Positions 7,111 through 56,310 of a stretch of DNA of 64,000 nt are shown here, in pieces. Positions within the stretch are counted from its first letter, which is position 1, and every line of letters begins with the position of its first letter. A program made the translations under genes and the position numbers. The DNA is from Mobula hypostoma (lineage: Eukaryota). The notes beneath the pieces are model-generated. The model was not told the origin of the DNA. It made no database searches and saw nothing but the letters and a program-made list of their open reading frames with translations. The DNA is taken from NCBI RefSeq assembly GCF_963921235.1, contig NC_086097.1:23438001-23502000 (forward strand). Reading direction: 5' to 3'.

Positions 7111-7738
7111 ACACAGATGAGAATAATGTTGATGGTATATTTAGATAGACATTTTAATTAATATACAAGAAGCAAAAGAAACCACTATATATTTATGAGG
7201 CAAAAAAATTATGAAGCAGATGGTTCCATTATCTGACCTGAGTGGAAACTGTAATTCAGTTTAATATCACACGCACCAAAATGGATTCAGCAAAAGTTCA
7301 AATCAATTATATTCATCAATTCAAGGAGCTCCATCACACTCCTCAGTTCAAGTTGCGGCTCCAGTTACTGGCATATCTATTGTGGATTACAAATACCCAG
7401 TTATCTCATTATCCCTATGAAATGGCATATCTCAAAATACAATCAAAAATTTGTGAATCGAAGATAGATGTCACCAGTTGAATTGATGGGATATTATTGA
7501 ATTTGAGTATTTTATCACGCATTGTATTTATTGCATTAGAGCTGTAATAAAGATTGGTTTTAAAACTTATAGAATTTAGCTTGAAAATGATGCACTTCTT
7601 TGCAACTAAAGGTAGGGTGGTGGTGTCAAGATTCAAGATTGAGTAATGTCATTTCCAGTACAAAAGTGTAAAGGAGAGCAAATAATTGTTAAACATAACA
7701 CGAGAAAGTCTGCAGTTGCTGGAAATCCAAAGGAACGA

Positions 7739-7756
<18 letters not shown>

Positions 7757-7770
<14 letters not shown>

Positions 7771-7916
7771 CCGGAGGAACTCAACAGAACAGGCAGCATC
7801 TCTGGAAAAGAATAAACAGTCGACATCCTTCAGGCTTGAGACCGAAACGTCGACAGTTTATGCATTTCCATCGATGCTGCCTGACCTGCTGAGTTCCTCC
7901 AGCATTTTGTGTGTGT
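7757..7916. repeat. Palindromic Penelope-terminus-derived element; related copies near 16720-16945, 19022-19220, 33428-33660, 46830-47020 and 60530-60670
   Basis: Left arm acacacaaaatgccggaggaactcaacagaacaggcagcatc is the near reverse complement of right arm gatgctgcctgacctgctgagttcctccagcattttgtgtgt. Confidence 0.85.
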
Positions 7917-8455
7917 TGCTTTGAAATAATTGTTCCTCCAGCACAAAAATACCAACAAGATAAAGTACACAATATTAAAAAACCCACATTTATTATTAAT
8001 ATATAAGGTAGTTTATATAGATTGATTGTATGTCCATTATGTAACACCAGGTACAGGAGGGTCTGTATATAAGGTGACCCTGACAGGAAGTGATAAAGTA
8101 GTGGTGGTGAGGGAGGTGTGGAGGGGTGGGTCAGGGGGTGGAACTGTCAATCAGCCTTGCTGCTTGGAAGAAGCAGCTGTTTTTGAGTCGGGTGATCCTT
8201 CATGGATGCTATGTTGCCTCTTCACTGATGGGAGAGGAATGAACAGTCCATGAGCAGGGAGGGAGGGGTCTTTCATTATGTTCCTAGGTTTTCATTGATA
8301 ATTAAGGGCAGAAATCTTATTGCTCAGAGAAGATTCAGATGCAACTGTGCTTTAAAGTTAATCTAGAAACAATGAGACTTTATTGCGATCCTGATGAAGA
8401 TAATGTCATGAATGTTATGTTCAAACTAACATTATTTGCCCAACCCATTCCCCAG

Positions 8456-8575
8456 GTAAAGGACCGGAGACACTTTATGCTGGGCAGAAGCTGAATGATA
8501 ATGACTGGCATGCAGTCAGAGTGGTTCGTCGAGGTAAACATTTAAAGCTGATGGTCGATGAAGTCACAGCAGAAG
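8456..8575 (+). CDS. NRXN3: Alpha-neurexin-3 coding exon, LNS4 domain, first exon after splice site 3 ([41 protein letters not shown])
   Basis: Acceptor cccag at 8451-8455, donor gtacgg at 8576; 120 nt, phase 1/1. The translation matches recalled neurexin-3 [40 protein letters not shown]. Not in the ORF track. Confidence 0.95.
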
Positions 8576-9939
8576 GTACGGTCATCTGAGTTGTTTAATT
8601 CGTCTAACATACGATTGACTCTGCAAGATTAAGTTAATGTACTTTAAAGAGTGGATTTAAATAATTTAAACACCATGTGTAATGAAAATATTTTATAATT
8701 TGTTCCATATTCTTTTCTGATATGGCAAGAGGCATCTGTTCATGCTTTCGCAAGCAAAGGAGTTACTGAGCATGCTTTAAACTACGTGAAATCATTTTAT
8801 TAGAGTTATGGAATGCAGAAAGAAGGACAAATAATTAATGAAGTAGCGGTACAGAAAACATTCTTGTATTTATCATCCACTAAGTGAGCTGAATGCTGGA
8901 GGGAACAATACATCCAACCAACTTTCACATGGCATTCTCTATTTCTGTCTCTCTATCTCCTCCATCTCAAGCCCCCTCATAATTCTGTATACTTCTGTCA
9001 AATCTGTCCTCATTTTCCTACCCTCAAGGAACTAAAGTCCTAACCTATTCGACCTTTCCCTATAAGCTCAGGTCCTCAAATCTCGGCAACGTCCTTGTAA
9101 AATTTCTCTTCACTCTTTCAATCTTATTGATATCTTTCCTGAAGGGAGGTGATCAGAAATTTGGCCTCCATATTTGGTCTCACCAACATCTTATGCAGGG
9201 TGAACAGAACATCCCATGACTTCTCTGAATTAACTCAGTTCATCCACCCACTTTGATGATCGATCGATGTCCTGATTTGACCTCAGGGAGCCTTTAACAT
9301 ACATCATATCAATTTTGTTTACATGCCCAATGGTGATATCAAAACCTAGTCTGAGTTATGTGTGCACAGAAGCTAATATCATTAAACACTACTCTGAGCA
9401 AAAAGGGTGAAGACTGTTATTGCATTCCACATGCCAGTTATACACTACAAGTTCACACGTGAGATTGGTGCAGAACAGTTCCAAGATGACTTTAACATCT
9501 TATAACATAGAACATGGAACAGTAGAACACAGAACGTGCCATTCAACCTACAAAGTTGTGCTGACCATTTTAATCTCTCCAAGGTCAACCTAACTGTTCC
9601 CTCCCATGTCGTCGTCATCATCATCATTCCCACTGCTGCCTGTAAGGGGTTTGTACGTTCTCTCCGTGACTGCATGGGTTTCCTCCCACATTCCAAAGAC
9701 GTACCAGTTTGTGGGTTAATCGGTTATTGTAAACTATCCTTTGATTAGGCTGGATTAAATTGGGGGATTCCTGGGCAGCACAGCTCAAAGGGCCGGAAGG
9801 CCCTATTCCATGCTGTATCTCAATAAATAAATAAATACATTTTGTGCCATGTTGTGTGATGTGGGTAATCATGACCTTTATGACCAGGATTGTAATCGGC
9901 AAATTTTTCTAAAGATGTTGTTTGCCATTGCTTTCTTCC

Positions 9940-14628: not shown

Positions 14629-15236
14629 GAGTTTCGCTGAACACCTACGCTCTGTCCGCCAGAGAAAGCACGATCTCCCAGCGGCCACACATTTTAATTT
14701 CACGTCCCATTCCCATTCTGATATGTCTATCCAGGGCCTCCTCTACCGTAAAGATGAAGCCACACTCAGGTTGGAGGAACAACACCTTATATTCCGTCTG
14801 GGTAGCCTCCAACCTGATAGCATGAACATTAACTTCTCAAACTTCCGCTAATGCCCCACTTCCGCCCGTACCACATCCGTTATTTATTTATTTATATACA
14901 CACATTCTTTTTCCCTCTCTCCTTTTTCTCCCTCTGTCCCTTTCACTATACCCCTTGCCCATCCTCTGGGCTCCCCCCGACTTTCTTTCTCCCTGAGCCT
15001 CCTGTCCCATGATCCTCTCATATCCCTTCTGCCAATCAACTGTCCAGCTCTTGGCTCCATCCCTCCCCCTCCTGTCTTCTCCTATCATTTTGGATCTCCC
15101 CCCCCCACTTTCAAATTGCTTACTAGCTCTTCTTTCAGTTAGTCCTGACGAAGAGCCTCGGCCAAAAATGGCGACTTTACCTCTTCCCAGAGATGCTGCC
15201 TGGCTTGCTGCGTTCACCAGCAACTTTTATGTGTGT
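14629..15236 (+). mobile_element. Penelope-like element 3' fragment inserted in a minus-strand CR1 (about 14195-15400)
   Basis: Perfect 16-bp direct repeat TGCTCATACGTTAACA at 14613-14628 and 15237-15252. The 5' part reads EHLRSVRQRKHDLPAATHFN...EEQHLIFRLGSLQP, typical of the GIY-YIG end of Penelope-like ORFs. Confidence 0.8.
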
Positions 15237-15687
15237 TGCTCATACGTTAACACTTTAATTCCCCGGATCATTCTCGTGAACCTACTCTGGACCATCTACA
15301 ATTCCAGCACATGCTTTCTCATTCACCCAAAACTGCTCACAATCCTCCAAAAGTGGTCTGAACTATGCCTTACAAAGACTTTGCATTGTATCTTTATTTT
15401 TATATTCTAGTGAAGAAAAGAAAGAGAAGCAAAATTAGACTGAGCAAGTGATTTTACCAATCTTGACATTAAGATTTATTAGTCAGGCATGTTGCACCCA
15501 TCTGATGGTTTACCCCCAATTGTCATCAATATAGCTTAGCTGAAGCACAGTAAAGGATTGAGCAATGGTTTTTATCATTCTTTCTGTGATTCCTTCTGTT
15601 ATTCTTCATGATCTCAGTTTTGGATAATTATTGCCACCTAGGTGTGAAAAAAATCTGTATGGCAGATTATTATATAAATAAAGAGTC

Positions 15688-16488: not shown

Positions 16489-19400
16489 TATCCTGGGCTT
16501 CAATGGAGTACCAAGCCCACTGATTTTGAATTCACTCTATTCATGCTTTGCAGCAAGAAGGGATCATTACACAAAATGTATTGGGTGTTAGTATAAAACG
16601 AATGCTTGAAAGTTAATTCAAACCCACATACTAACAAATTTAAAAAATATGAAGTTCAGAGCAAGACTTTGGAGCAAGGAGGTGGTCTGGAAGAGGAGAG
16701 GAAAAGAGACAGAGCAACAGACACAAAATGATGGAGGAACTCAGTAGATCAAGCAGCATCTATAAAAATGACCATAATGGTGGAGGAACTCAGTAGATCA
16801 AGCAGCATCTATAGAAATGACCATATCTGCATCCCCAAAACATCCACTGTTTATTCATTTCCATCAATGCTGCATGACCTGTTGTGTTCCCCCTGCGTTT
16901 TGTGTGTGTGCTTTGGATTTCCAGCATCTGCAGATGTTCTTGTGTTTATAAAGAGAAACAGAACAGCAGTTATTCCTATCTCATCCACTCTTCAATGAAA
17001 ACAGAAATGTAGCCTGTATGGAGACGCAACAGGTTAGTCTTCCAGGTTTCCTGCAAGGCATAGCATTTTTAACAGTACACTATCCTCATGGCATTGCGGT
17101 TCCTGAATCAGCACAGACTTTTGTGCTTATTGCTCAGTATGAGTCCAGTCAAACATTTGTTTTGAGAGCTTTAAGAGTTGGTCTAATCCAGTGGTAGGAG
17201 ACGATAAGACATGGGAGCAGCATTCGCCCCATTGAGTCTGCTTTGCCGTTTGATTTATTATCCTTCTCAACCCCATTCTCCTGCCCCCATTAACTTTCGA
17301 TATCCTAACTCATCAAGAACTCTGCTTTAAATATACCCAATGACTTGGCCTTCACGTGCCCATGGCAATGAATTCCACAGATTCAGAATCAGGTTTCAGA
17401 TCACAAGCATATGTCATGAAATTTGTTAACTTTATAACAGCCGTACAATGAAATACATGGTAAATAGATATAGAGGGGAAAAAATGAGTTACATTAATAG
17501 CTGTGTCTTTTAAATAGTTAGGTTAAAATAAGTGGTGCAAAAAAATAAACAGAAATGAAAAAAGTAGTGAGGTGATCTTCATGGATTCAATATCTTTTGA
17601 GAAATCAGATGGCAGAGGGGAAGAAGCTATTCCTGAATCGCTGAGTGAGTGTCTTTAGGCTTCCGTACCTGATGGTAACAATGAGAAGAGGGCATGTCAC
17701 TACCCAATCAAGCCACTAATAAGGCTGCTCTTCAGAGAATTTAGAGAAACTGGCCTGTTTATCCATTCTTTGCTCAGAATATCAACTCAGCAGTGTGACT
17801 CCGGTGTTTTTGTTGCTCAGTACACACGAACAATTAATCTGTCAAGTGTCCTGTTCTGTTATGGAGTGTTCACCTTCCATAACTCTCGTGTAACTCATTT
17901 GTACCAGTTTGGATGTTGGGAAAGTAAATTATGTTGTGAAGCCTTGAACTAATTTTTTGGTGAACCACGACACATTTTTTTTCACTCCAAGAAGCACGAT
18001 TATACTTTGTTCAGGTGTGAGGTGAGATTCGCAATATATTCTGGCTTGAACTATAATTGCACAGCAAGACTATGCTCGCCTCTACACAATCAGTGTAAGC
18101 CTTCCCTTCTACACATCCCATTGCCCTCCACATGTCTATCTAAAAGTCTTTCAAATGTTTCTATTGGACCAGTGTCTACCACCTTCCCCAGCAGTGCATT
18201 TCAGGCACCCACCACTTTCTACGTAAAATTTTTTAAAAAAACACACACGTCTGACATCTCTAAATTTCCTCAATTCATTTTAAATGGATGTACCCTAGTA
18301 ATGGCCACTGCCACCCTGTGAGAGAGTCTTCAGCCAGAGCGTGATGAATCTGTGGAATTTGTTGCCACTGGCGGCTGTGGAGGTCAAGTCACTGGGTATA
18401 CCTAAGGTAGAGGTTGATAAATTCTTGATTAGTCAGGGCATGAAGAGATATGGGGAGAAGGTAGGAGACTGGGGCTGAGAGGAATAATAGATCAGCCATG
18501 ATGAAGTGGTGGAGCAGACTTGGTAGGCCAAATGGCCTAATTCTGCTCCTATATCTTATGGTCTTATGAGAGAAAAGTGCTGGCTGTCCACTTTATCTGT
18601 GACACTCATGATTTTATGCACCTCTGTCAAGTCACTTTGCATCCTCTTTTGCTCCAAAGTGATAAGCCCTAGCTAGGTCAACCTATTCTCATATGACAAA
18701 TAAGCTCTGGCAGAGAGCTCAACCAAAAGGGGCTTGGGTATAAGGTGTTGAAGGAAATCATTTTCACTCATGAATTGCTGGAGATCAGAAAGTTGCTGAC
18801 TGAAAGGACAGGAAAGGCAAAAATAAATTCAGAAAGTTCTTGAGTGAGCAATGATTGTTTTCAACCTATTGTATTTAGCAAGTGACTTTTAAAGTAAGAT
18901 TATATGCTGCCATGCATGTTAAGTGATGCACTTTGTGAGGGAGGCTCTTCTCAAGGAGGAAAGGCAAGTCACAGGAAGAGCCAGAGATCCTAGAAGATGG
19001 AAAAGGAGGATTATTCACAACAGACACAAAATGTTGGAGGAACTCAGCAAGACAAGCAGCATCAGTGGAAAGGGAATAAGCAATAAAGGTTTCAGGCCGA
19101 GACCTTCATCAAGACTTGGTCTGAAGTGTCGATCATTTATTCCTCTCCATGCCAATGCTGCCTGACCTGCTGAGTTCCTCCAGTGATGTGTGTGTGTGTC
19201 TTGCTCTGGGTTTCCAGCATCTGCAGAATTTCTTGTGTTTGTAATTAGTCAATATATCTCTTTTGCAGCTATTGTGCCAGAATGGGATTCGAACGACAGA
19301 TACTGTAATCCATGTGTTGTTCACCCACTTTTTGCCATTTGCACAATTTGTTCCTTTTCTCACGCATTTGCTGGTTGATGTTTTCTTGAACAGGCTCCAT

Positions 19401-20370: not shown

Positions 20371-21196
20371 CAGTCATCAGGTTCAAGCTTGTCATTCAAC
20401 CATATGTGAATAGCCATGAATACAGCCAAACAAAACAGTGTTGCTCCAAGACCAAGGTGCAAAGCACTGTACCAACAATCACACACAGTCCAAGGCATCA
20501 TTCTTATTGATATATTTTTCCTGTAGGTAGGTGTAACTGCACACAATAATACCCTCCAATCTGATGGCATGAATATCGATTTATTTTTCCCAGTAAACAA
20601 ATTCCACCTCCCCCCCACCGCTCCTCCTCTGTTACTCTGACCTTTTACTACTTCTCGCCTGCCTATCACTTCCCCTGGGTCACCACCTCCTTCCCATTCT
20701 CCTGTGGTCCGCTCCTATCAGATTCATTTTTCTCCAGCCGTTGACCTTTCTCACCCAGCTGGCCTGACCTATCACCTGTCAGCTAGCCTCTTTGCCTTCA
20801 CCCCACTTTTTTATTCTGGCAACTTCCCCCTTCCTTCTCAGTGCTGGAGAAGAGTCTCAGCCTGAAATGTCAACCGTCCATTCATTTCCATAGTTGCTGC
20901 CTGATCTGCTGAGTTCCTCCAGCATTCTGGGTACGTGCCTAGAAATAACATACGTGGTACTCTGCAAGAACTCAGCGGATTAGACGGCGTCTATGGCGAA
21001 GAATAAACAGTCGATGTTTCAGGGTGAGACCCTTCAACAGGCCTGTTCACTTCATGCAGTTTTGGTCACCTGCCTACAGGAATACCTTGATAGCCAGTGC
21101 AAGCACAGCATCTATGTGGCTGTTAGGGTATTGCCATGGGATGTGGGAATGAAATGTGAGCTATCCAAAATCACTGACTAGATGTCTTAAATGTAG

Positions 21197-21578: not shown

Positions 21579-22692
21579 GTAAGGTGGATCTGAAAATCAA
21601 AATCCATTGGTTTTTCTCTTCATCAGTTCTGATGAAGTGTCCTGGACTTGAAAAATTAATTGTGTCTTTTTCCACAGATGCCTGACCTGCTGAGTTTTTC
21701 ACCATCCTGTGTTTTTTAATCTTTTGATTGCCAAAAATCTTTCTCAGATGTCGGGTAGAGGAATCTGAGATTCTTCAGAAAATAAACTTTTTTTTCCTTC
21801 TCTTTTTTTTTTGTATTTGCACAATTTATTGTTTTTTTTTGCACGTTGAGTATTGTCCGTCCGGTTGGGTGTGGTCTTTCATTGATTTTATTGTGTTTCT
21901 TGTATTTATTGTGATTGCCCACAAGAAAATAAATCTCAGGTTAGTGTATGGTGACACATATATACTTCAATAATAAATTTATTTTGAACTTGGAAATTAG
22001 CACAGCATTGTGGCAGACCCGTGAATAGGCAAGGCGATAGACCATGTGCAGGCAGATGGGGTGTGTTAGATTTGTATCATGGACAGTGCAGATATGCACA
22101 GAATGACCTGTCCCTGTGCTGTAGAGTACAATGTTCTTCAAATGAAATCCCATTTGAAATTGGTGATCCTTGCAATATGCAGCCTTGTGTAAATGCTGAG
22201 GATTTTATTTGGATTTGACTAGAGTCCAGCTTTGGAGCAAGCAGACAGATTCAGCATTCCAGATCTCTCTATAATTCCGGAAGTTAAGCATTTGAGAGTG
22301 TGTGTGTGTGTGTGTGTGTGGAACTCCAGGGCTGATTGCCAATCAAACAAGTGAATCTCTAATATGACTATGAGCATCATAGGAAGTCATTCCTGCCTGT
22401 GGCCATCAAACTTTACAACTCCTCCCTTGGAGGGTTAGACACCCTGAGTCAATAGGCTGGTCCTGGACTTATTTCCTGGCATAATTTACATATTACTATT
22501 TAATTATTTATGGTTTTATTACTATTTAATTATTTATGGTGCAACTGTAACAAAAACCAATTTCCCCCGGGATCAATGAAGTATGACTATGACTATGATG
22601 AAAAGCCAGCAAATTTCTGCCATTCCCTCCAAAATTGGGGATCACACACAAATCATATCTACTTGAACAAGGTGGCAGCAGTGCCTCCAGAG

Positions 22693-24623: not shown

Positions 24624-24814
24624 ATATATCCATTACGTGTTTGATCTGGGAAATGGACCCAATGTTATCAAGGGAAACTCTGAGAAGGCCTTGAGTGACA
24701 ATCAGTGGCATAATGTCGTGATCACCAGGGACAACAGCAACACTCACACACTGAAGGTGGATGCTAAATCTGTGACTCAAATCATCAATGGTGCCAAGAA
24801 CCTTGATCTCAAAG
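24624..24814 (+). CDS. NRXN3: Alpha-neurexin-3 coding exon, LNS5 ([36 protein letters not shown]...AKNLDLKG)
   Basis: Acceptor ttcttctgcag ending at 24623, donor gtgagt at 24815; 191 nt, phase 2/1; frame continuous with the flanking exons. Confidence 0.97.
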
Positions 24815-25010
24815 GTGAGTTCTTCATCCATTTTACTTCAACGATACCTTAGAAGACATTGACATAGTTTCTGTTGCACATCATGAAGGTGAGACACACT
24901 CCACTGAGCAACATGTGTCAAATAAAGGCTTAAAAGATCAGAAACAAACTGCTTTGACTTTACCAAGTGGCAGAATCACAGTCCGAATCAAGTTTATTAT
25001 CACTGGCATA

Positions 25011-26629: not shown

Positions 26630-28001
26630 TCGTGCCTAAGACTTTTACACTGTATTGTATGTTGTGAAATTTGTTTTACATCCAATACATATGAAAATAT
26701 TAATACAAATTACAATAAATGAATACATTTTGGTTGGGTGGGACTACAACCAGAGGTCATGGGCTAAGAATGAAAGGTAAAGAGTTTAAGAGGAACATGA
26801 GGGGTAACGTCTTCAGTCAATGGGTCATGAGAGTGTGGAATACAGCACAGGAACAGGCCATTCGGCCCACAATGTTGTGCTGAAGCAGCTAAAATGCTTC
26901 CTACACAACGTCAATATCCCTCCATCTTCCTCGCACCCATGTGCCGATCCAAATCTCTCTTAAAATCACCATACCAGGCAGCGCATTCCAGTCATCCACG
27001 ACTCTCTGAGTAAAACACTTACCCCTCACATCTCTTTTGAACCTATCCCCCCTCACCTTCACTGCGTACCTCCAGTACTAGACATTCAAGCAGTGCAAAA
27101 AGAGAACAAAATAGGAAGGTAGTGTTTATGGGTTCATGGATGGTCCAGTCATCTGATGGCAGAGGGAAAGAAGCTGTTGTTAATACATTGAGTGTGTGTC
27201 TTCAAGCTCCTGCACTTCCTCCCTGATGGTAGTAACGAGAAGAGGGCAGGTCTTGGATGGTGAATGTCTTTGAAGATGGATGCTGCTCTCATGAACTATC
27301 ACCTTTTGAAGGTGCTCTCGATTGTGCAGAGCGTAATGCCCATGATGGTGCTGGCAGAGTTTGCAGCCTTTTGCAGCTTTTTCCAATCCTGTGCATTGGT
27401 TCCTCTTTTCCAGACGGTAATTCACCCAGTCAGAGTGCACCTGTAGATGGGCACACGGATGTGCAGAAAATGGAAGGATATGGACATTATGCAGACAGAA
27501 AAGGGTGGAGGAGCAACACCTCATATTCTGTTTCAGTAGTCTCCAACCTGATGGCATGAATATTGATTTTGCCTTCCAGTGAAAAGTTCTGTCCCTCCCC
27601 CTTCCCTCTTCTCCTGTTCCCCATTATAGCCTTTACTTATCCTTAGCAACCTATCACTTCCTCCTAGGTCCCCTCTTCCTCTCCTTTCTCCTATGATCCA
27701 CTTTCCTGTCCTATCAGAATCATTCTTCTTTAGCTCTTTACCTGTCGCACCCACCTGGCTTCCCCTATCAGCTTCCAGCTAGCCTCATTCCCCTCCCCCT
27801 ACCTTTTATTCTATTGTCTTCCCCCTTTCTTTCCAGTCCTGATGAAGGGTCTCAGCTGAAAGATCGACTGTCTATTCGTTTCCATAGATTCTGCCTAACT
27901 TGCTGAGTTCATCCAGCTTTTTATGTGTGTTGCTCTGGATTTCCAGCAACTGCAGATTGTCTTGTGTTTAAGAAAAAATTAGTTTATTTGATTACTAGTT
28001 T

Positions 28002-28322: not shown

Positions 28323-29024
28323 ATTAGTTTGGCAACAAAATGTAGGATGAAGGGCCTGTTCCTTTACTGTTGCTCTATGCTCTAGATGTTCTGCAGCAGC
28401 TGCACATTTCAAGCAAAGTGGAGTATGTTCCATTATGTTTCTGACATGCGTTCATTTTCCCATAGCTTTGATAACAAGTTCTGCTGAAGTAACTCTTGGA
28501 GGCTGGTTTAGTTTTGACGATAGATAGCTTTCTGTTTGTTCTGTTGTGCCCCATCCATATCTCCAAAATACTGGCTTACCAAATTGCTGAAGAGTTGTCT
28601 TTGTCAAAAGGAAGACGTCATCTTTAGCCCCTATGCTATAGGTGTGTGGAAGTGGTTGGGAGAAGAGAGTGCAGCGATCCGATATGCCTTGCACATGGAT
28701 ATTATCCTGTGATTTCTTGTGCAGGCATTCTGGACTCATTCCATCAAACTGCATGGCACTGATATTAAAATGATGCAAGTATGATATACCAGGATTTTCT
28801 GAAATTGGTTACTTCAGAATGGGAAAGATGCAAAGTTAATTGACATAAAAACCAGGAAGACATGGATGTCCTGCTGATAACATAGAGCAAAACTTAGCAC
28901 ACACATTTTAAATTAGGCTGTGCTTCAAAACACTGTAGAACACAACGGGGATGCTTGCTTTGAAGATTATCGCATTGCAGCAGAGCTTCAGTCTTTTTTT
29001 TGGTTGTTGTCTTTGTCTTACCAG

Positions 29025-29198
29025 GTGTTCTATACATCGCTGGGCTGGCCCAAGGCATGTACAGCAATCTGCCAAAACTTGTTGCCTCCAGAGATGGGTT
29101 TCAGGGTTGCTTGGCATCTGTGGACCTCAATGGAAGGCTCCCGGACCTGATTCACGATGCGCTACATCGCAGTGGTCAAATTGAACGTGGATGTGAAG
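29025..29198 (+). CDS. NRXN3: Alpha-neurexin-3 coding exon, end of LNS5 ([57 protein letters not shown])
   Basis: Long U-rich tract and ccag acceptor ending at 29024, donor gtacac at 29199; 174 nt, phase 1/1. Near-identical to the recalled NRXN3 peptide. Confidence 0.96.
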
Positions 29199-29930
29199 GT
29201 ACACCATTTTGCAACTCTAGTTCAGGCTTCCGTTTCAACTCGAACAGTAGCACAAACCCACACCTATGCATCCATCCATCTGAGAGAATTTCACTCTGGT
29301 TTATTGTCATCACATTGTCTTTCATTGTAATAATTTGTTCACCACTGGATCTGTCCATTTAATCAGTTTAAGCACCAATACCAAACTGTAAATCTCATTA
29401 GATTTTGTATGTAACACACTTGATAGGGCTCTTTTAATTTTGGAGATGCTTGTGTACATTGTAAATGAGTAAATATATTTATCAGAAACTCAAATCTTGC
29501 CTTTTTGATTTTATTTCTTCAACAAACATTTATTTTGCTCCCACAATTCAAGATTTCAAGCATGATGGTGGTCTGTTAATTGGAAGTTGTCGGCAATAAC
29601 TGAGATGCCTGAAGTGTGTGGATCTGCAAATTGCCACTTGAGCTGGATAAATTGGGGAGGGGTAACTAATTGGTTAGAGTTATATTCATAGCGAAGTACA
29701 GCACAGAAGCAGACCCTTTGGCCCATCTAGTCCATGCTGAAACAATTTAAACTGCAACTCTGAGGGACCTGCACCAGGACCATGGCTGTCTATATCCCTA
29801 CTGTCCATGTATCTATCTAAACTTCTCTTAAACATTGAAATCGAGCTCGCTTGGATCACTTGTGCTGGCAGATCTTCCCACACTCTTATGACTCTCTGAG
29901 TGAAGAAGTTCCCTCTCATGTTCCCATAAA

Positions 29931-32916: not shown

Positions 32917-34679
32917 TAAACTTCTCGCCCTTTAACCATGACCTCTAATTATAATCCCACTATACCTTAGTGGAAAAAGCCTGCTTGCATTTACCCCATG
33001 TGTACCGCTCATAATTTTGTATACCTCTATCAAATCTCCTCTCAGTCTTCCACGTTCTAAAGAGTACAGTCCTAACATAATCAATCTTTCCTTGTAAATC
33101 AGGAACAGCAACATCCTTGTAAATTTTCTCTGCACTTTTTCAATCTTGTTTAAATCTTTCTCGTAGGCAGGTGACCAAAATGCACACAATACTCCAAATT
33201 AGGCCTCACCAGCGTGTTATACAACTTCAACATAACATCCCATTTTCTGTACTCAATACATTGATTTATGAAGGCCAATGTGCCAAAAAAGAAGGACCAG
33301 TTAACTCTGTGCTGCACCACTTACGCCTTTTTTAAAAAAAACATTAATGAACCATAAACCTCAGGTTTGATTTTCACGCCTTACAGGTTGAATCATCCTT
33401 GCAATTGAAGTAGTTGGGACCTTTCATAACACACACAAAATGCTAGAGTAACTCAGCACTTCATGCAGTATTTATGGAGAGGATTTAGCAGTCGATGTTT
33501 TGGTCTGAGATCCCTCACCAGGAGTTTGTTTCTCCCTCAAGACTGATGAAGGGTTTATCGCCAAAAACATGAGCTGTTTATTTCTCACCATAGATGCTGG
33601 CTGACCTGCTGAGTTCCTCCAGCATGTGTGTGTGTGTGTGTTAGAATCTGCAGAATCTCTTGTCCTTGGGAACCTTGCTCCAGATTTCCACCCAGTGATT
33701 CCTGCTTGGAAAGTTTGCAAGCTGTAAGTGAAACCAGTTGGTCTGTAATGTCCTCTATCATCAAGTGACCCTTTGTTACCGTTTAATTGGGTTGCCATGA
33801 GCAACACAAAACACCATTGGTTTCCCATTTCAATTATGGCCTTGCTTCAGTGAAAGGGTGGAGATGGCACTGAAGAAGGAGAAAGTTGGCAATAAAATGC
33901 ATGAAACCTGTTAGTATTATGCATTCTCTTGGAATTTCCAGAGCCAAAGCGTTGCAGAATTTTATTAATGCGCACACAACGTGCTGGAAAAATGCAGTAA
34001 GTCAGCAGGTCTTGATGAAGGGTCTTAGACTGAAACATCAACTGCTTATTCCTTTGTTAGATGCTGCAGAGTTCCTCTAGCATTTTGTTTGTGTGTGTGT
34101 GTCAGTGTCAGTGTCAGTCTGGATTTCCAGCACCTGCTGTGTTACCTGCAGAATATCTTGTGTTCGTGCTATTTTATTCCTGACAAAACTGCCTTTGTTT
34201 TTATTACTCAAATCAATCATTAAGTTTTAATTTCTTCATTTCCTTGTTTTCCATCTTTGATTCTGCACAGAAGGTTTGAGTGATACAAAACGAAAATGAC
34301 ATCACTGGGAAGACAATGGAGTGAGAGAATACTTTTTCATTTGCATCAGGGAACAAAGAGCTAAAACATTCTATGTTGACACTGCAGTCTATTTTTGTAC
34401 ATGACCACAAAATGTCACAATGAATTGCCTCTTCATTTAAATTAAGTTTTTATTATCGTATAGTATTATGAAATATTACTAGCATTCTTTCCAAAACATT
34501 AAAGTTACTCAATCAATGCATGGGTTGACTTTGTTATATAGTGATAAATATCCTGCCTTTGAATTATGAAGTTTTATGTAATATTTAATATTTGATGCAT
34601 AGGTTGTAATTTTTGATATTTTCTGCTATTTGCATTTGACTTTGCATCAATTAACTTGCAATATTTGTTTGTTATACGC

Positions 34680-42277: not shown

Positions 42278-45200
42278 AATATCATCACGGCTGTCTCGGA
42301 TTATCTGGAGAGACAGAGGCAAGCAAGACAGGCAAATTCTGCAGAAGAACCGTGGCAAGTCTCCAAGATGCTTGAAAGAACCTACCAGCCGATTTTCTTA
42401 TAAAACTGCACAACAGTGTACCTAAAAGAATTGATGCAGTTTTAAAGGCACATCAAATAGTGATTGGATTTAGATTGTTCCTGTTTACTGCTCTTTATAG
42501 TAATTTTTTTTATATTTAGGAACTTTGCAAGTCATTATTTTTGAAACCATCTTTGCTTTACAGAATTCTGTTTTTACGTGTGCGTGCCTGAGCCTTTTGA
42601 ACAGTACTGTACTTCCACTTGAGGGAAATTACAGAACATGATCTAGAGATTGGTAAGATAGCTTGTGAGAACAAGAGTAAACCCATGCTTGCTCTGGGTA
42701 GAGAGAGAAGGTATGAGTATAAGAACAGATGCCATTACAAGCTTTGTAAACTACAGTGGAGGGGAAGGTATAGTTTAGAATAAAGGAAGACAGAGTTGTG
42801 TGCTGTTGTCACCAAAATAGGAGAAGAGAATGGAATCCTAACATAAAGCTAGTTAGAAGGATGCATAGACAAGAAAGCTATGGGAGTCACAAGAGATTTA
42901 ATGAAGGTTTTGGGGATATACAACAGGTGTATAAAGAATGGATATCCATATTCCAAGATGTAGCAGTGGGGCTCAGGAGTCAGAAGTCGTCAAAGTAGTG
43001 GAAGATATGCAAGGTGTCCCAGGTGTAAGTTGATCTACTGAATTCCTCCAGCAGATTGTATGAAGCTTCGGGAGTGTGTGGTTTGTAATGAATTTTGGTT
43101 GCTTTCATATGCCATGAGATGGAGATAGAGAAAAAAAGGGTCAGAGATGGGTACTGTGAAATTTCAAGCAAGGTGGAGGTTGACAGCAAAGGTGATGATG
43201 GAACACTCGAATCTTATATGAGTAAAATAAGCAATCCGTATTGCCTATCCATAATTGTGATAGAAGTGGTTCGTATGAGAACAGCAAATTGAACTGCTGC
43301 AGACCTTAAGGTAAAGTTAGAGTGAAATGGTTGGGATTTCCAGACAATCATCATTGTACCAGAGAAAAGGATGAGAATTGTGGCCTAAGAAGAAATGAAA
43401 AAGGGTTTTCATGTATCCCACCAACAGACAAGCACTGTATGTGGAGGAAGGGAGAGGTTAATAGTGAAGTTGTTCCATGTGAGAACAAATTTACTCAGGT
43501 GAAGAATGGCAGTGAACTAGTGGTGGAGAACTAGTTGGGTGTCCATTAAACAAAGAGCACTTGAGTATCCTGGTGTAGAATGGTGCTGTAGAGATGTTGG
43601 ATATCAATGGAGATGGTGAGGTAGTTAGGACCAATCACTGGAAACTGTCAAATAACTGAAGGGTGTCAAAGATGCCCTGACTGGAATTTGGAAGAGTCTG
43701 GACATAGGTAGGAAAGTGCTGTCTTTATTGATAGTCAATCCTCTGCCCTGAACTTCACTCTCCCTCAACCAGAATCACATGATGGATGCAACCTGTATAA
43801 TTCACTATATAAATTCTATAGCAAGTCTTTTTGGCAACATCTTCTAAACCATCAACTCTCTAATCTTGAAGGACAAGAGCAGCAGGCATTACCTCTGAAT
43901 TCTTAACGTGGTGGATCTAACTCCTCAAATTCACTCCCTCCTCACTGCATCTAACAGGAGTACCTTTACCTTAAAGACCACAAAGCAAAAAGCAAAGATC
44001 ATAGAATCATTGCTTCTACTTGTCTTGTAAATTTCAAACCAACTCCTGATGTGCTTGCCAGCGTTCCCAATTCCCAGGTCACTCCCTATTGCCAGCTCTT
44101 GACCCACACTCCTGCTCATCCTGATTATCTAGGCACTTTTAAGAAGTGATGAAAGAATGAACTCGGTATCCCCATCATTTGTTGACTGAAATTGTTCATT
44201 TTCTTAATGAAGGAAAATGGGTCCTTTTGTGTTTACCATCTCTAGGCCTTTCATAATTTTATATCTCAATTAAATGTCTCTATTTCTCCTTGTTCTAAAT
44301 AAAATAACATTAACTTCCAATGAAGTCATTCGCAAAAACCTGGACACAGGTAATGAATTGAATGGCTACACAGTCTTACAGAAATAGGCTCTTTGGCATA
44401 ACTTCTCCTCACTGACCAAGAAGCCCATCCAAGCTATAATAAACACGAGATTCTGCAGATGCTGGAGATCCAGACTAACACACAAAGTGCTGTTGGAACT
44501 CAACTGGTCAGGCAGCATCTATGGAGGTGAATAAGCAGACAATGTTTTGGGTTGAGACACTTCATCGGGACTGGAAAGGAAGTGGGAGGATGCCAGAATA
44601 AGAATGGTGGAGAAGGTGCAGGAGTACAAGTTGGCAGGTAATAGGTGAGGGGAAGGGAGTGTGGGTGGATGGGTGGGGAAAGGGTGTATGAAATCAGAAG
44701 CTGCGAGGTGAGAGGTAGAAAAGGTAAAAAGGTGAAGAAGAATACATCTGATAGGAGAAGGGAGAGGACCATAGAAGAAGGGGAAGGGTGAAGGGCAGCA
44801 GAGAGCTCTGGTGGGCAGGTGAGGAGAAGGGTAGGGGTAAAAGGGAAGCCAGAATGAGGAATGGAAAAGGGGGAGGGGAGAGAAATTACCAGAAGTTAGT
44901 CCCTCTTGTTTGCATTTGGTCTATATGCCTGTAAATCATTCCTATCCATATACCTAGTGGGTGTTGTTATTGTACTTGCCTCAAACATTTCATCTGGCAG
45001 CTCATTTTATCCACACACCACACTCCACTGAAGTTACCTTCAGATCCGTTTCTGAATTGATCCCCTGTCACCTTAATCTGTGCCCTTTCATTGTTTTTGA
45101 AATTAGGGTGCATGGGTCCTTTCGGCCCAATGACCCCACAACATCCAGTCGCACAATGTGATCAATTAATCTACTAACCCGTACATTTTTTGGAATGTGG

Positions 45201-47199
45201 GAGAAACTGGAGCACTGGGAGGAGACCCATGTGGTCACGGGAAGAATGTACAAACTCCTTACAGACAGTGGCGGGAAATGAACCTGTGTCTCTGGCACTG
45301 AAATAGACTGGTAATGTCTCCTCATATGGTGATGAAACATCTGCAAATGGATTGGCAAGATCGGAGAACAATAACGCAACCACTGTAATAGAGATATACG
45401 AACCATAATGTTCCATGTTGGCCCAAATGATTCCCTTCTCCTTGGAAAACAATTGAGTGCATTCAACCTATCTATGTCTTTCATGATGTTACACACCTCC
45501 ATAAGGCTCCTCAGTGTCCTACACTCCAAAGAATAAAGTCCTGCTCTGCCCAACCTCCTCCTATGACCCAGGCCAAGAACCAATGGCATTGTTGTAAATC
45601 TTTGCACATTTTCCAGTTTAACGATGTTAAGCCAGAACAGTATAATCAAAGTTGAACTTAATAGTTTGGGTGCAGTCTCACTGATGCCTTGTAGAATCAC
45701 AACATGACATCCCAACCCTTTCACTCCATGTCCTGTTTATAATTTCTGTTTGTAATTTTCTGACTTTTTCGTTCATTTGGGAACAGCGTGTTACTTGGTA
45801 AGGATTGTCTGTGTTACAACAGTCTGTAAGGAAATAAATTGAGCATAGAAATGGGCAGTTTTCCTCCCCTGCCCTCCCCGCCGTGTCTATGCTAACAATT
45901 TACTATCTATCCTAATCCCATTTCCCAGCAATTTCTCCAGAACCAACTATAACTCCTCTAGATATTTAAGCAGTGACAGTATGCCTCCATCACCCACCCA
46001 CTTAGACGCTATCTAACTTGAGGGAATTTAACAACAAGACCACAAGACATTGGTGCAGAATTAGGCTATTCAGCCCATCAAGCCTCTCCAGTTTTCCATC
46101 CTGGATGATTTACTATCCCTCAAAACCCCAATCTCCTGCCTTCTCTCCGAAACTTTCGACGCCATTTCTAGTCAAGATCCTATCAGCCTCTGCTTTAAAT
46201 ATACCCAATGACTTGGCCAGCACAGCCATCTGTGGCAGTGATTTCCACAAATTCACCACCCTCTGGCTAAAGAAATTCCTCCTCATCTCTGTTCTAAATG
46301 GTCATCCTTCAATTCTGAGTCTGTGCCCTCTGGTCTTAGACTCCGTCACTAATGGAAACATCCTCTCCATGTCCACTGCATTTAGCCTTTCAAACTTTGA
46401 CAGGTTTCAATAATTTAGGCTTGTAGCCCCAACCACAGAACCATCCTCTGCTGCCTTTTGGCAGGTTGGTATGGCCAATAATACAAAGGGATTTTTAATA
46501 TTTTTTGCTGTCAGCTCTGTTATCAGCAACTGCAGATCTTCTAAATGGAGTTTATAATTATACTGCAGCACTGAAGCATTCTGTTTTGCCTGACTGATTT
46601 GTGCCGTCGCTTGTTGCCTTCGTGAGTCTCCTCCCACCTTCCTTTGTTTCACCCTGTAATCATATTCTTCCAATCCTCTGCCCGGGTTTGCACATAGTAT
46701 ATAACATTGCAGCGGACTATTAGGGCCAGCAATCCATTCCACTATTTATACTCCACATGAATCTCCTCGGATCTTTCCTCCTCTAAATCTATCAATATAA
46801 CCTTCTCCCACATGCACTTGACAAATACAAGAGGATTTGCAGATGCTGGAGATGTAGAGTAACACACACAATATGTTGGAGGAAACCAGCAGTTCAGGCA
46901 GCATCTGTGGTTTCAGGCAGACACCTGTCATGTCCTGATGAAGGGTCTTCACCTGAAAATCAGCTCTTTAATCCTTTCTGTAAATGCTGCCCGACCTGCT
47001 GAACTCCTCCAGCATCTTGTGCGGTTACCATGCATATACTTGTCCTGCCTCCCTTGAAGTGTATCGCATTATTCTCTGCAAGCACTCCCTGTAGTAACAA
47101 GTTCCACATTCTTCTCATGCTTTAAGTGAAGACCGAAGCTTTCTCTGAGTTCCTTGCTGGATTCCTCAGTGGTTCACCTGACATTGTTGTCAGTGTCTG

Positions 47200-50900: not shown

Positions 50901-53579
50901 GATTTGATCTTCAAATGAAATAGTCAGGTTGCTTAGTAGGTTGCTGATGGATTACATGTGGTTAATGCATGTTAGTGGGGAAGAACTGAGACAATGACAA
51001 AAACCTGAAGGTGAAGGATGGAGATAGCAGACTTCCTTACAGGAAGGCCCTTCCTGACCTTAAGAGATGTTCGAGCTTCAATTAAGATTTTGCCTGGAAA
51101 GAGATCATGCTAGGAAAATATTTATGACTTAATTGCCCCTATAACTCAAATATTCCCAGCTGCATTGCTAACAACATCCTTCACAAAGCAGAATATTGTT
51201 GCTATGTTTCTTTGTTCTAGCAAAGTTGTGTGTATCTTTCTGTGACTTTACTGAAGCAGCAACATTAGGCAAGTTTTGCCATGAACCTGAGTATCAAATA
51301 TAATCTTTATACTATCAGTTTAAAGAGGCTCGAACTATGTCTGTTTCTACATGAGGAATATTGGTGTCAATGACCAACACAGTCCTAGGATGTGCTGGGG
51401 GTAGCCTGCAAGTGCTTCACACTTCAGGTACCAAAACCGACTCAAACATCTCAAGTCTACAGAGTTTTATTATTACTGGTTGTGGCCCAAATTCCATTGA
51501 TCTATTTCAAGCATCTTTAATCCATCTTTTACACTCCAATTTTTTAATGGACAACATTTAGCTTTTGAAGTTGTTGTGGCAGTTTTAGGATTTCAGATTG
51601 AAACACTTTGTTTTTTTTTGAACAAGTGCTGTCTAAGATCAGCTCCAATGGCACTCAGTTCAATTGAAGTTTGCACTCTCTCCACACAATGTGCATGAAG
51701 CAAGCCTATAGAGGTGAGATGGCTGCTGGTTTTGCTGGCTGCTCGCCATGTAGAACCTACTCTTTCCTTGGCATTACAGGGGTTGCAAAATAAGAGCCAT
51801 TAGGACCGTCACAGAGGCTGCTGAGCGAGCCTCTAGATGGCGATGGATCAAGAGGTGTGACTTGTGGACCTGAACAGCTCTGGATGGGTTACCTGGGCCT
51901 GAGTGCCTGACATTGAAAGATCCAAAACACTCGAGGACCCCAGGTTACATCATTGATGATGTGTCTCAGTGCATCTCAGCATTATGTGCCATCAAATTCA
52001 CACATCCAGAAATCTCATGTTTCCTTCTAAAAACGAGTCTACTGGCATGGCCCGAAATCATCTCCCCCACCCCTCTCTCCAAAGGCTAAGTAACATATAG
52101 GTATATCAGTGCTGATTCTATCAGTATTCTTTACTAGAAAGAGCATGTGTGTGGACTTTAGTCCATTAGGATTTGAGATTAGTTTTATTGATCACATGAA
52201 CATCGAAATATACCGTGAAATGTGCATTTCTGAGTCAACAAACAAAGCAGTCCAAGGACATACTGGGGGCAGCCGGCAAATATCACCATGCTTCTAGTGC
52301 CAACATAGCACGTCCACAGCTTACTAGCCCTAACTCACCTGTATGCCTTTGGAATGTGGGAGGAAACCCACATCGTCATGGAGAGAACATACAAACTCCT
52401 TACAGACAGTGGCAGGAATTGAGCTCCCCATCGCTGGCGTTGTGAAGTGTCACATTAGCTGAGGGTGAGGATTGAGATGACCTTCTTTGATCAACTTATC
52501 AGAAGGTCCTCTTTTCGAGATTGACACATGGGGAGTGGACAGAAAACCTGTTGATACCTTCAAACCTGTACACTGATTATCAATGCCTTTTAAATAAGGT
52601 GCTGCTGTTTTATTTCAGTATTAGTTATTTCTCCTGCACAAAAGTATTTTTTGCCGGATGTGAACTTGAAGGAAGTTTTACTGCCTTTCCTTTTAATCAT
52701 ACATAAACTTGTGAAATTAAGAACTAAACTTATATATGTCACGATAATTGAATTTATGTGTTGTATTCAAACTGCGCCTGGGTGTTAACTATAGCAGCCA
52801 ATGTTGTTATTTGTAGCTGTGTTAACTTAGCAAACAGAATCATTAATCTTCATTAACTTTATGAGGAAATATGAATTGAATATACCTTTCACATGTTGCT
52901 TAACTTTAATCAAAATTTTATTTTCAGCAAAAAAATTTTTATTTGTGATAATCTGATTTCCAGAATGACTGCCAATTTAGAATAGGTTGGGATTGATATG
53001 AAAGATGCAAACTTGTGAACATGAAAGTTCTGTTCCATTCCCTTGCCAGCCAAGTTCATTATTTCCTCTAGTGATCTCTATACTTTGTTCATCCGGGGAA
53101 AGTCCTGCATCATTCTCCACCAGAATAACATTCATCTCCCACCTCCATCACTCCCGACGTAGCTGAAAGTTAATTAGCAGATTTTCACGAAGTGTATCCC
53201 TCCTCATAACTGGGAATATGGGAGATGGTCATCAAACATCTCAATGAAACAGGAGATTCTGCAGATGCTGGAAATCCAGAGCCACACACACACACAAAAT
53301 GCTGGAGGAACTCAGCAGGTCAGGAAGCATCTATGGAAATGAATCAACAGTCAATGTTTTGGGTTGAGACCCTTCATCAGGAAGGGGGAAGAAGCCAGAA
53401 TAAGAAGAACCTACTAACCCATACGTCTTTGGAATGTGGTAGGAAACTGGAGCACCTGGAGGAAATCGAAGTGGTCATGGGGAGAATGTACAATATCCTT
53501 ACAGACAACAGTGGGAATTGATTCCAGATCACTGGCATGTACATTGTTACGCTAACAGCCATGTTACTGTGCCATCTGA

Positions 53580-54650: not shown

Positions 54651-54919
54651 TAGGAGGGAATATAAGAGGCAACTTGATAAAGGGGTATGAGATGAAAAGA
54701 GGCATAGACAGAGTGAGCAGTTAGCACCCTTTTCCCAGGGTGGCACTGACAAATGCAAGAGGACATAATTTTAAGGTGATTGGAGGAGAGTATAGGGGGA
54801 TGTCAGGGGTAGATATTTTACACAGAGAGTGGAACACCTTACCAGAGATGGTGGTAGAGACCTATACATTAGGGATATTTAAGACAGTCTTAGGCACATG
54901 GGTGAAAGGAAAATGAAGG

Positions 54920-56310
54920 AGTATAAACAGAAGAGATTCTGAAAATCCAGAGCAACAAACACTAAATGCTGGAGGGTCAGGAAGCATCTATGAAAATAAA
55001 TATTCAACGTTTTGGGATGAGACTTCATCACAACTGGAAAGGAAGAGGGGAAGATGCTAGAATGAAGATCTAGCGGGAGGGGAAGGAGGACAACTTAGAA
55101 GATGAAAGGTGAAGCCAGGTGGGTGGGAAAAGTAAAGTGCTGGAGAAGAAGGACTCTCATAGGAGAAGAGAGTGGACCATAGGAGAAAGAAGAAGGAGGG
55201 GCAAGTGAGGAGAAGGGGTAAGAGGATGAGTGAAGAATAGAAGAGGAGGGAAGGGAAGGGGGAAAGCTTAAAAGAAAAGAAAAAATACTGGAGGGATAAA
55301 TTGATGTTCATGCCATCAGGTTGAGGCTATTTAGAGTGAATATGAGGAGTTCCTCCACCCTGGGAGTGGCTTAATCATGGCAAAAGTGGAGGCCATGGAC
55401 CGACATACTGGGACAGGAATGGGGATAGGATTTAAAATGGTTGCCCACCAGGATATTCTGCTTTTGGCAGATGGAGCAGATGTGCTCGACAAAGCAGACC
55501 CCTATTGTGTCGGGTCTCACCAATGTCGAGGAGGGACCATCAGGAACACTGGATACAATAGACAACCCCAACAAGATTCATAGGTGAAGTGTTGCCTCAC
55601 CTGGAAGGATTGCTTGGAGCCCTGGATGGAGGTGAATGGGCAGGTGTAGTATTCCTGTTGATTGCAGGGATACGTGCCAGGAGGGAGATTAGTGGGGAGG
55701 GATGAATGGACAAGGGAATCATGGGGGAGCAATCTCTACCGAAAGTGGAGAGGGGTGGGGGTTGGTGGAAGTAAAGCTGTGTTTGGTGGTAGAATCCCAT
55801 TGAAGATGGCGGAGGTTGCAGTAATTGATGTATTGGATGTGGAGGCTCATGGAGTGATAGGTGAGAACAAGGGGAACTCTAACCCTGTTCAGGCAGTAGG
55901 AAGATGGGCTGAACACAGATGTCTGGGAAGTGGAGGAGAATTGAGTGGGAGCAGCATCAACAGTGGAGAAAGGGAAATCCCATTCATTGAAGGAGGAGGA
56001 CATTTCTGATAGGAAAGCCTCACCCTGGAAACAGATGTGGCAGAGACAAAAGAACTGAGAAAAGGAATAGCGTTTTACAGAGGACAGGGCGGGGAAATGT
56101 ATACTCAAGGTAGCTGTGGGAATCTGTAGGTTTATAAAATAAAATGGTGGTAGACAGTTTGTCTCCAGAGATGGAGGTAGAGAAATAGGAAAGGAGAGGA
56201 AGGTATCAAAAATGGATCGAGTGGATTGAAGGGCAGGGTAGAAGTTGGAGGAAGAGCTGATGAAACTGACAAGCTCAACATAGTTGCATGAAGCAGCACC
56301 AATGCAGTCA
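54920..56310 (-). mobile_element. Penelope-like retroelement, RT C-terminus to GIY-YIG end plus terminal repeat
   Basis: ORF fragments PPGTYPCN...CPFTSIQGSKQSFQVRQHFTYES, FVEHICSI, RVPLVLTYH and FSQFFCLCHIC resemble Penelope/Neptune ORF segments; frameshifted. Confidence 0.8.

What the first reader, a model, noticed from the sequence alone, without database searches (positions are those of the whole stretch)
27834..27870. Family of minimal type-I hammerhead-ribozyme-like motifs dispersed through the neurexin introns
Seen: the Penelope-type terminal repeat contains CAGTC-CTGATGA-AGGGTCTCAGCT-GAAA-GATC-GACTG here. Sense copies occur at about 15141, 20839, 21624, 33543, 34006 and 46931, and antisense copies at about 2447, 19088, 21008, 44537, 53349, 55003, 58410 and 61119. 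My by-eye consensus is CAGUC CUGAUGA AGGGUCUCGGCCY GAAAC GUC GACUG. It has stem I (CAGUC/GACUG), the CUGAnGA and GAAA core, stem II, and a palindromic ACGU stem III with a GUC cleavage triplet. Established: Penelope-like elements carry minimal type-I hammerheads with palindromic stem III that cleave as dimers. Inference: these are relics of a self-cleaving RNA system. Every copy I read has at least one core or stem defect, often CpG-type decay, so the sense copies may have been silenced inside this pre-mRNA.
Basis: partly seen in the sequence, partly recalled or inferred. Interest (0 to 1): 0.75.

Follow-up and report, generated by a model that had tools for sequence, protein, structure and literature searches.

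The report
Decayed Penelope hammerheads in ray neurexin
The motif is a real but mutated copy of the small, dimer-type self-cutting RNA carried at the ends of Penelope-like jumping genes, a known kind of element that is hugely abundant in this ray genome, and nothing shows that the neurexin gene has specially silenced its copies.

Summary
Observation confirmed. All 15 listed sites are copies of one repeat, plus two more full-length ones; shuffles give none. The repeat is the end of a Penelope-like retroelement. Intact elements elsewhere in the genome have one RT + CX4CxxC + GIY-YIG frame and the motif in both pseudo-LTRs, 3.5 kb apart. The genome holds 45,476 exact matches to an intact 34-nt form, control 0. 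Between old and young subfamilies the motif is kept better than its flanks, but no compensatory changes were found and cleavage is untested.

The host gene is neurexin-3 (+ strand). None of 17 window copies is intact. The decay is mostly CpG loss and is not worse in sense copies: 1.0 versus 1.6 core defects. At least two intact sense copies sit in other introns of this gene, so sense-specific silencing is not supported.

This is a new member of the minimal Penelope hammerheads described in 2014. This scan has already noted it many times in this genome and in sharks. Only the scale, and the spread of a G10.1·U11.1 variant, stand out.

The parts
27834..27870 (+). Flagged motif copy; least damaged in the window (5 of 38 differences). 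11-nt core and stem I intact, one base lost from stem II, stem III no longer palindromic.
   Evidence: its predicted fold is not a hammerhead
27502..27970 (+). The 5'-truncated element carrying the flagged motif: end of the GIY-YIG frame (27502-27573), pyrimidine-rich 3' region, motif, ~100-nt tail.
   Evidence: blastn and tblastn against intact element L051
2447..2486 (-). Motif copy, antisense; U4 changed
14633..15240 (+). Younger-type element end (87% to L051; last 72 codons 90% identical) with sense motif copy 15140-15177; G12 and U16.1 changed
19014..19238 (.). Head-to-head pair; antisense motif copy 19081-19117 (C3 changed) plus partial + partner
20836..21046 (.). Tail-to-tail pair: sense motif 20839-20876 (A6 changed) and antisense motif 21008-21045 (A6 changed); predicted to fold back as one long hairpin
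21624..21662 (+). Sense motif copy ~45 nt behind a 5' splice site; core intact, stem II displaced, stem III not palindromic
33419..33660 (.).
34006..34044 (+). Sense motif copy; C3 changed; short inverted partner just upstream
44536..44573 (-). Antisense motif copy; U4, G12 changed
46825..47034 (.). Head-to-head pair with sense motif 46930-46966; core intact, stem I broken
53348..53385 (-). Antisense motif copy; G12 changed
54914..56339 (-). Longest element remnant in the window: broken RT-thumb/linker/GIY-YIG frame (55295-56339) running into antisense motif copy 55001-55036 (C3, G12 changed)
57188..57225 (+).
58406..58442 (-). Antisense motif copy; C3, G12, A15.1 changed
61119..61156 (-). Antisense motif copy; G8 changed
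7699..7939 (.). Head-to-head pair joined inside the motif; both halves lack the first core box
8455..8586 (+). Neurexin-3 exon (host gene; approximate ends)
   Evidence: tblastn with P0009
21181..21579 (+). Neurexin-3 exon (LamG region; match ends approximate); 123 residues 100% identical to ray and skate neurexin-3a proteins
24625..24828 (+). Neurexin-3 exon (approximate ends)
29024..29218 (+). Neurexin-3 exon (approximate ends); the flagged motif lies ~1.15 kb upstream in the preceding intron

Best explanation
The motif is the minimal type-I hammerhead in the pseudo-LTR of an endonuclease-bearing Penelope-like retroelement (Neptune/Nematis-type linker) that has amplified enormously in this ray. 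In a full element the motif occurs twice, 3.5 kb apart (shown). The ACGU stem III has no loop, so one copy cannot close it; two copies would have to pair through the palindrome, probably with help from the element's protein, to cut after GUC (inferred from published relatives). Reverse transcription starts about 65 or 100 nt downstream of the motif, so even very short insertions carry the whole motif uncut (3' ends shown; the mechanism is inferred). Most insertions are short, 5'-truncated, often inverted pairs. Once inserted they are dead passengers: they lack a partner, about half of the sense copies here have an inverted neighbour to pair with, and ordinary CpG decay hits G12, the stem III palindrome and the cleavage site. 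The 17 window copies are such relics and most likely do nothing to neurexin-3.
For: Intact elements: a 1043-codon stop-free frame in L051; two motifs each in L052 and L053, plus an inverted 5' piece in L052. Pfam RVT_1 E 5.8e-5 and GIY-YIG E 0.001, both below gathering score. Window copies align to the element's 3' end, several with ORF remnants. 45,476 intact-form matches, control 0; 68,303 first-look candidates for the ORF remnant, 150 scored. Old versus young subfamily identity: motif 34 of 38 columns, ORF end 52 of 68, upstream region 56 of 120 and 73 of 172, tail 12 of 20 and 61 of 80; the real motif differences fall on tolerated positions. 3' ends of 120 copies peak at +65 (31) and +100 (37), like the two RT start sites in PMC11167929. 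CpG positions kept 61 of 136, others 402 of 476. No sense excess of damage. 10 inverted pairs among 35 hits.
Against: No compensatory changes: covariation score 0.147 against 0.159 in shuffles for 19 copies, and the 100 listed of 2,484 stem II variants are uncompensated point changes. In flanking context the young form is not predicted to fold as a hammerhead (stem I pairing probability about 0). 85% of intact-form copies have G10.1·U11.1 in place of the usual G-C. The old-versus-young comparison is inflated by recruiting copies partly through the motif and by poor alignment of the pyrimidine-rich flank. Cleavage was not tested. Inertness in the gene rests on one 64-kb window and about a third of the intact copies.
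Confidence: 0.88

Rival explanations
1. Active ribozymes harm the pre-mRNA, so selection removes or mutates sense-strand copies inside genes.
For: Sense copies keep fewer motif CpG positions (23 of 64 versus 38 of 72, p 0.058). No sense copy in the window keeps the stem III palindrome (0 of 8 versus 2 of 9). Five intact copies lie in the 2.27-Mb coding span, against 8.3 expected from the surrounding C1:20-30 Mb (p 0.17) or 11.8 from the whole listed ranges (p 0.023) (hand counts; p). Retrozymes are under-represented in Xenopus introns (bioRxiv 10.64898/2026.07.22.740005).
Against: Core damage is no greater in sense copies; non-CpG core is kept 75 of 80 in sense and 81 of 90 in antisense. Orientation of all hits is 15 to 20, p 0.50. 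Intact copies in the gene split 2 sense to 3 antisense, so any shortage is not strand-specific. L054 is an intact solo sense copy.
Confidence: 0.1
2. The motif is hammerhead-derived but no longer cuts in the dominant young subfamily; it is kept as a protein-binding or RT-positioning signal.
For: G10.1·U11.1 in 38,871 of 45,476 intact-form copies. Poor predicted folding in context. 5' ends do not pile up at the cleavage site: 3 of 120 within four bases, one exact. In the anole element, hammerhead mutants did not affect insertion in vitro and no RNA-seq reads ended at the cut site (PMC11167929).
Against: All catalytic positions and the palindrome are kept between subfamilies while the flanks drift. 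Natural hammerheads with even a U10.1-U11.1 mismatch are reported (PMC3088659). The anole motif did cut once its protein was added.
Confidence: 0.25
3. One or more copies have been domesticated to regulate neurexin-3 splicing or elongation, like the conserved intronic hammerheads of amniotes.
For: Two sense copies with an intact 11-nt core and stem I lie near exons (21624, ~45 nt from a splice site; 27834, ~1.15 kb). Domesticated intronic hammerheads are described in PMC6155905.
Against: Both have lost the palindrome and have damaged stem II. Their tails are 20-28% diverged, like the other copies. With about one copy per 4 kb, nearness to an exon is expected.
Confidence: 0.03
4. The repeats are non-LTR retrozymes (tandem hammerhead units) and not truncated retroelement ends.
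For: Short units greatly outnumber ORF-bearing ones: summed contig depth over motif and tail is about a thousandfold that over the 5' ORF in four runs (a rough measure). Retrozymes are reported from one cartilaginous fish.
Against: No tandem array contains the motif (17 rows). 5' ends are scattered and run continuously into the ORF.
Confidence: 0.04

Closest known systems
Minimal hammerheads (min-HHR) of metazoan Penelope-like elements (Cervera and De la Pena 2014, PMC4209133; abstract, results, discussion, start of methods read; one of two supplement files searched)
   Same: Type I layout, CUGANGA and GAAA boxes, extra base between 9 and 10.1, short helix I, palindromic 15.2-16.2, place in both pseudo-LTRs, most copies solo and variable.
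   Different: Scale: 45,476 exact intact-form matches here against about 4,000 (coelacanth) and 9,000 (Xenopus) found with a looser descriptor. Helix II is 4 bp. Most young copies have G10.1·U11.1. No shark or ray term in the supplement file that could be searched.
Poseidon element PAc of the green anole (Frangieh et al. 2024, PMC11167929; main text and start of methods read)
   Same: RT + GIY-YIG frame, hammerhead at the pseudo-LTR/ORF junction, two insertion 3' ends about 35-40 nt apart downstream of the motif.
   Different: Here the first in-frame ATG lies 138 nt after the cut site, whereas in PAc the start codon precedes the cut. This element has the CX4CxxC linker that marks Neptune/Nematis.
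EN+ Penelope-like elements of the Neptune/Nematis type (as described in Craig et al. 2021, PMC8557442; passages read)
   Same: 5' truncation, partial tandems forming pseudo-LTRs, inverted 5' copy, optional 30-40 bp tail, zinc-finger-like linker.
   Different: Clade not fixed by an RT tree here.
Non-LTR retrozymes (bioRxiv 10.64898/2026.07.22.740005; introduction to discussion read, supplements closed)
   Same: Type I hammerhead derived from pseudo-LTRs, dispersed monomers.
   Different: No tandem arrays of the motif in this window; copies continue into ORF sequence.
Ultraconserved intronic hammerheads of amniotes (RECK and others; PMC6155905, passages read)
   Same: Type I motif in an intron.
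   Different: Those are conserved across species at fixed loci; these are decaying members of a high-copy repeat.

Membership tests
Minimal hammerhead of Penelope-like elements | Core C3 U4 G5 A6 N7 G8 A9 / G12 A13 A14 / A15.1 U16.1 H17 in type I order | tested here: met
   Family form: 76 and 45,476 exact genomic matches. Flagged copy: core intact.
Minimal hammerhead of Penelope-like elements | Stem I of 4-5 bp and stem II able to pair | tested here: met
   Both stems form in the isolated 38-mer of three genomic copies; damaged in most window copies.
Minimal hammerhead of Penelope-like elements | Loopless or tiny palindromic stem III that needs a dimer | tested here: met
   ACGU in the family form; kept in only 2 of 17 window copies, not in the flagged one.
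Minimal hammerhead of Penelope-like elements | Lies in both pseudo-LTRs of a full element, on the ORF strand | tested here: met
   L052 and L053 each have two motifs about 3.5 kb apart; L051 has only the 3' one.
Minimal hammerhead of Penelope-like elements | G10.1-C11.1 pair and an extra base after A9 | tested here: inconclusive
   Extra A present. G-C in 6,605 of 45,476 intact-form copies, G·U in the rest.
Minimal hammerhead of Penelope-like elements | Compensatory changes in the stems across families | tested here: inconclusive
   None in 19 copies or in 100 listed stem II variants. These are copies of one family mutating after insertion, so none is expected; no second family was available.
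Minimal hammerhead of Penelope-like elements | Self-cleavage as a dimer or with protein help | not testable with these tools
   Needs an in vitro assay.
EN+ Penelope-like element | One frame with RT followed by GIY-YIG endonuclease | tested here: met
   L051 frame of 1043 codons with a YIDD motif; RVT_1 E 5.8e-5, GIY-YIG E 0.001, both under Pfam gathering.
EN+ Penelope-like element | Pseudo-LTRs, 5' truncation, inverted 5' copy, optional 30-40 bp tail | tested here: met
Neptune/Nematis type | CX2-5CxxC linker between RT and endonuclease | tested here: met
   CX4CxxC read in the L051 translation; definition from PMC8557442.
Neptune clade | Placement in an RT tree with reference elements | not tested
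   No reference set was fetched.
Non-LTR retrozyme | Tandem units each holding a complete hammerhead | tested here: not met
   No motif-bearing array in the window; rest of the genome not examined.
Domesticated intronic hammerhead | Intact fold, conserved at the orthologous site across species | tested here: not met
   0 of 17 intact; orthologous introns were not compared.
Rfam hammerhead families | Match to an Rfam hammerhead model | tested here: not met
   No hammerhead among 4 matches at E up to 10 in the window; intact genomic copies were not scanned.

The most novel reading that the evidence does not exclude
This ray carries over 45,000 sequence-perfect half-ribozymes, about 13 per Mb, so giant pre-mRNAs such as neurexin-3 hold several intact sense copies. 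These could be cut when paired through the ACGU palindrome with one another or with transcripts of the still-intact element, or when bound by its protein. That would let transposon activity switch on cleavage of host introns across the genome. The sweep of the G10.1·U11.1 form to 85% could be an attenuation that let the element spread at lower cost.
Probability: 0.08. Interest if true: 0.65.

Novelty: new member of a known kind. Interest (0 to 1): 0.2.

Why it matters
As it stands it is a correct catch of a known element. Its value is as a test bed. With tens of thousands of near-identical intact copies, one annotated-genome count could show whether minimal Penelope hammerheads ever cut in vivo, which the papers read leave open: a sense-strand shortage in introns would be the signature. 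Intact autonomous elements such as L051 also offer a protein-RNA pair from a second clade for the protein-assisted cleavage reported in the anole element.

Tried and rejected
Rfam scan of the window: no hammerhead match. First fuzzy search timed out with no output. Covariation: none. Fossil evidence of cleavage (5' ends at the cut site; lead from e1-7790562): 3 of 120 copies start within four bases, one exactly, and one of the three is a full-length diverged copy; no pile-up, but the sample is biased because 30 loci were picked for holding the whole motif. An alternative stem II register using an A-U pair is less stable. Expression: no RNA holder listed among 21 runs; the four runs laid were contigs and showed no place where many molecules begin or end, which says nothing either way. 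The L051 protein has no PDB match at E up to 0.1. Tandem arrays: none with the motif. A large intron sample across the three neurexin genes could not be obtained, so the strand test rests on the window and on listed positions of 15,726 of 45,476 intact-form copies. Lunse et al. 2017 was not held; its dimer result is taken from the review PMC6765202 (passages). Not-in-print check: 'hammerhead ribozyme + cartilaginous fish + retrotransposon' gave 0 papers; 'Penelope, ribozyme, shark, Neptune' gave 9 listed, and the three I read among them describe no shark or ray Penelope hammerhead family beyond retrozymes in one cartilaginous fish; some searches were seen as listings. Unseen supplements (file 1 of PMC4209133, the bioRxiv tables) and Repbase/Dfam may already list this family.

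Full report
Observation. The flagged 37 bases are present as written. A profile built from 39 genomic loci finds 35 pieces of the repeat in the window, 15 on + and 20 on -, and none in 20 shuffled windows. Seventeen pieces hold the whole motif after dropping one spurious row (57122-57164). The consensus of window copies alone differs from the by-eye consensus mainly by CpG decay. The by-eye consensus exists exactly 76 times in the 3.48-Gb genome, reversed control 0. Rfam did not detect the window copies.

Host. The exon at about 21181-21579 encodes 123 residues identical to stingray, devil-ray and skate neurexin-3a proteins, so the genome is most likely a ray's (inference). The coding exons span C1:22,501,181-24,776,474 on the + strand. 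The whole window lies inside the gene and holds four exons, so + copies are on the pre-mRNA.

What the repeat is. A broken frame at 55719-56339 (-) has 68,303 first-look candidates in the genome, of which 150 were scored; some lie in long open frames. I fetched three of these. L051 has a 1043-codon stop-free frame with an RT motif, a CX4CxxC linker and a GIY-YIG domain, and the motif lies 292 nt after the stop. L052 and L053 have the motif on both sides of the frame, about 3.5 kb apart, and L052 has an inverted 5' piece. This is the layout of endonuclease-bearing Penelope-like elements given in PMC8557442 (passages). Window copies align to the 3' end of L051, several with ORF remnants, at about 68-87% identity over the longer motif-bearing alignments. 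Among 120 copies in 242 kb of held DNA, 3' ends peak at about +65 (31) and +100 (37) from the predicted cut. The references ended at +105 and one was of the short form, but contigs of four coded organisms also end there. This matches the two RT start sites and optional tail shown for the anole element (PMC11167929).

The motif. Read in hammerhead numbering (from established knowledge) it has a 5-bp stem I, CUGANGA, one extra A, a 4-bp stem II with a four-base loop, GAAA, a loopless ACGU stem III and a GUC cleavage triplet. That is the min-HHR of PMC4209133. An intact 34-nt form has 45,476 exact matches, 22,693 + and 22,783 -, control 0. Of these 6,605 have G10.1-C11.1, so about 85% have G·U. 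The listed G·U copies keep their other CpGs, so this is most likely the master sequence and not decay (inference). The majority of 15 older copies equals the young element at 34 of 38 motif columns, against 52 of 68 at the ORF end and 56 of 120 just upstream. Two of the four differences are at tolerated positions, one is a CpG tie and one an alignment slip. This points to selection on the motif in active lineages, though copies were recruited partly through the motif. Against: no compensatory changes were found, and in context the young form is not predicted to fold as a hammerhead. Published relatives cut weakly and only as dimers (review PMC6765202), or only with the element's protein, and cutting was not needed for insertion in vitro.

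State of the window copies. None of 17 is intact. CpG positions are kept 61 of 136 times, other positions 402 of 476. Three of the four CpGs sit on G12, the palindrome and the cleavage site, so ordinary methylation-driven decay disables the motif without selection (inference). Ten inverted pairs occur among the 35 hits; the five folded form long hairpins, and 5 of 8 sense motif copies have such a neighbour. The flagged copy is the least changed but has lost a stem II base and the palindrome.

Is there sense-specific silencing? Core defects average 1.0 in 8 sense and 1.56 in 9 antisense copies (p 0.26); the core is intact in 3 of 8 and 0 of 9. Total differences are 10.0 and 8.4 of 38 (p 0.23). 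Two patterns covering 15,726 of the 45,476 intact-form copies place five in the gene's coding span, two sense and three antisense. One sense copy was read: a solo 920-bp piece with an intact motif (L054). Five is below the 8.3 expected locally (p 0.17) or 11.8 over the listed ranges (p 0.023, hand counts, inverted pairs not independent), but not strand-specific. Power is low; a modest genome-wide bias is not excluded.

Verdict. It is a new member of a class described in 2014, and the window copies are decayed passengers. Earlier notes of this scan report the same family in sharks and in this genome (53 notes fit the look-up, 8 shown), one 376 kb upstream in the same gene; they are unchecked AI notes and I do not count them as support. 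I found no paper describing this family in rays, but unseen supplements and repeat libraries may hold it. What remains of interest is the copy number, the G·U sweep, and the chance to test in vivo cleavage by a strand count.

Noticed in passing
G000 genome-wide: About 85% of intact-form copies carry G10.1·U11.1 in place of the usual G-C pair; it appears to be the master sequence of the most successful young subfamilies.
   Followed up: partly
L051:559-3690: Stop-free 1043-codon Penelope-like frame with RT, zinc-finger-like linker and GIY-YIG; suggests recent or current activity. No PDB relative found.
   Followed up: partly
L054 (G000:C1:23126786-23127705, +) and G000:C1:24380793 (+): Intact sense-strand motif copies in neurexin-3 introns, 1.25 Mb apart; the first is a solo 920-bp truncated element, the second was not read.
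   Followed up: partly
window 7699-7939, 19014-19238, 20836-21046, 33419-33660, 46825-47034 and five more pairs: Inverted pairs predicted to form 200-240-nt hairpins in the pre-mRNA; possible editing substrates or aids to back-splicing (inference). The 20836-21046 pair ends ~150 nt before an exon.
   Followed up: partly
window 49485-49543 (-): Short copy whose 5' end falls exactly at the predicted cut site; 1 of 120 copies, no enrichment seen.
   Followed up: yes
window 28008-28310 (+): Insert with a tRNA-like head right after the flagged element, SINE-like by eye (label from recall); a related stretch lies in L015.
   Followed up: no
window 25800-26635 (-): Broken LINE-type RT remnant (RVT_1 and ALKBH8_N hits).
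   Followed up: no
window 35223-35499, 47696-47906, 6479-6588, 39907-40051: Minisatellites of period 36, 33/66, 35 and 47, unrelated to the motif.
   Followed up: no
G000:C22:52.47-54.17 Mb (-) and C82:0.16-1.49 Mb (-): Two further neurexin genes, also over a megabase long; usable for a strand test.
   Followed up: no
L002-L009: An older subfamily with A at N7 (8 of 15 older copies), a position free to vary in hammerheads.
   Followed up: partly
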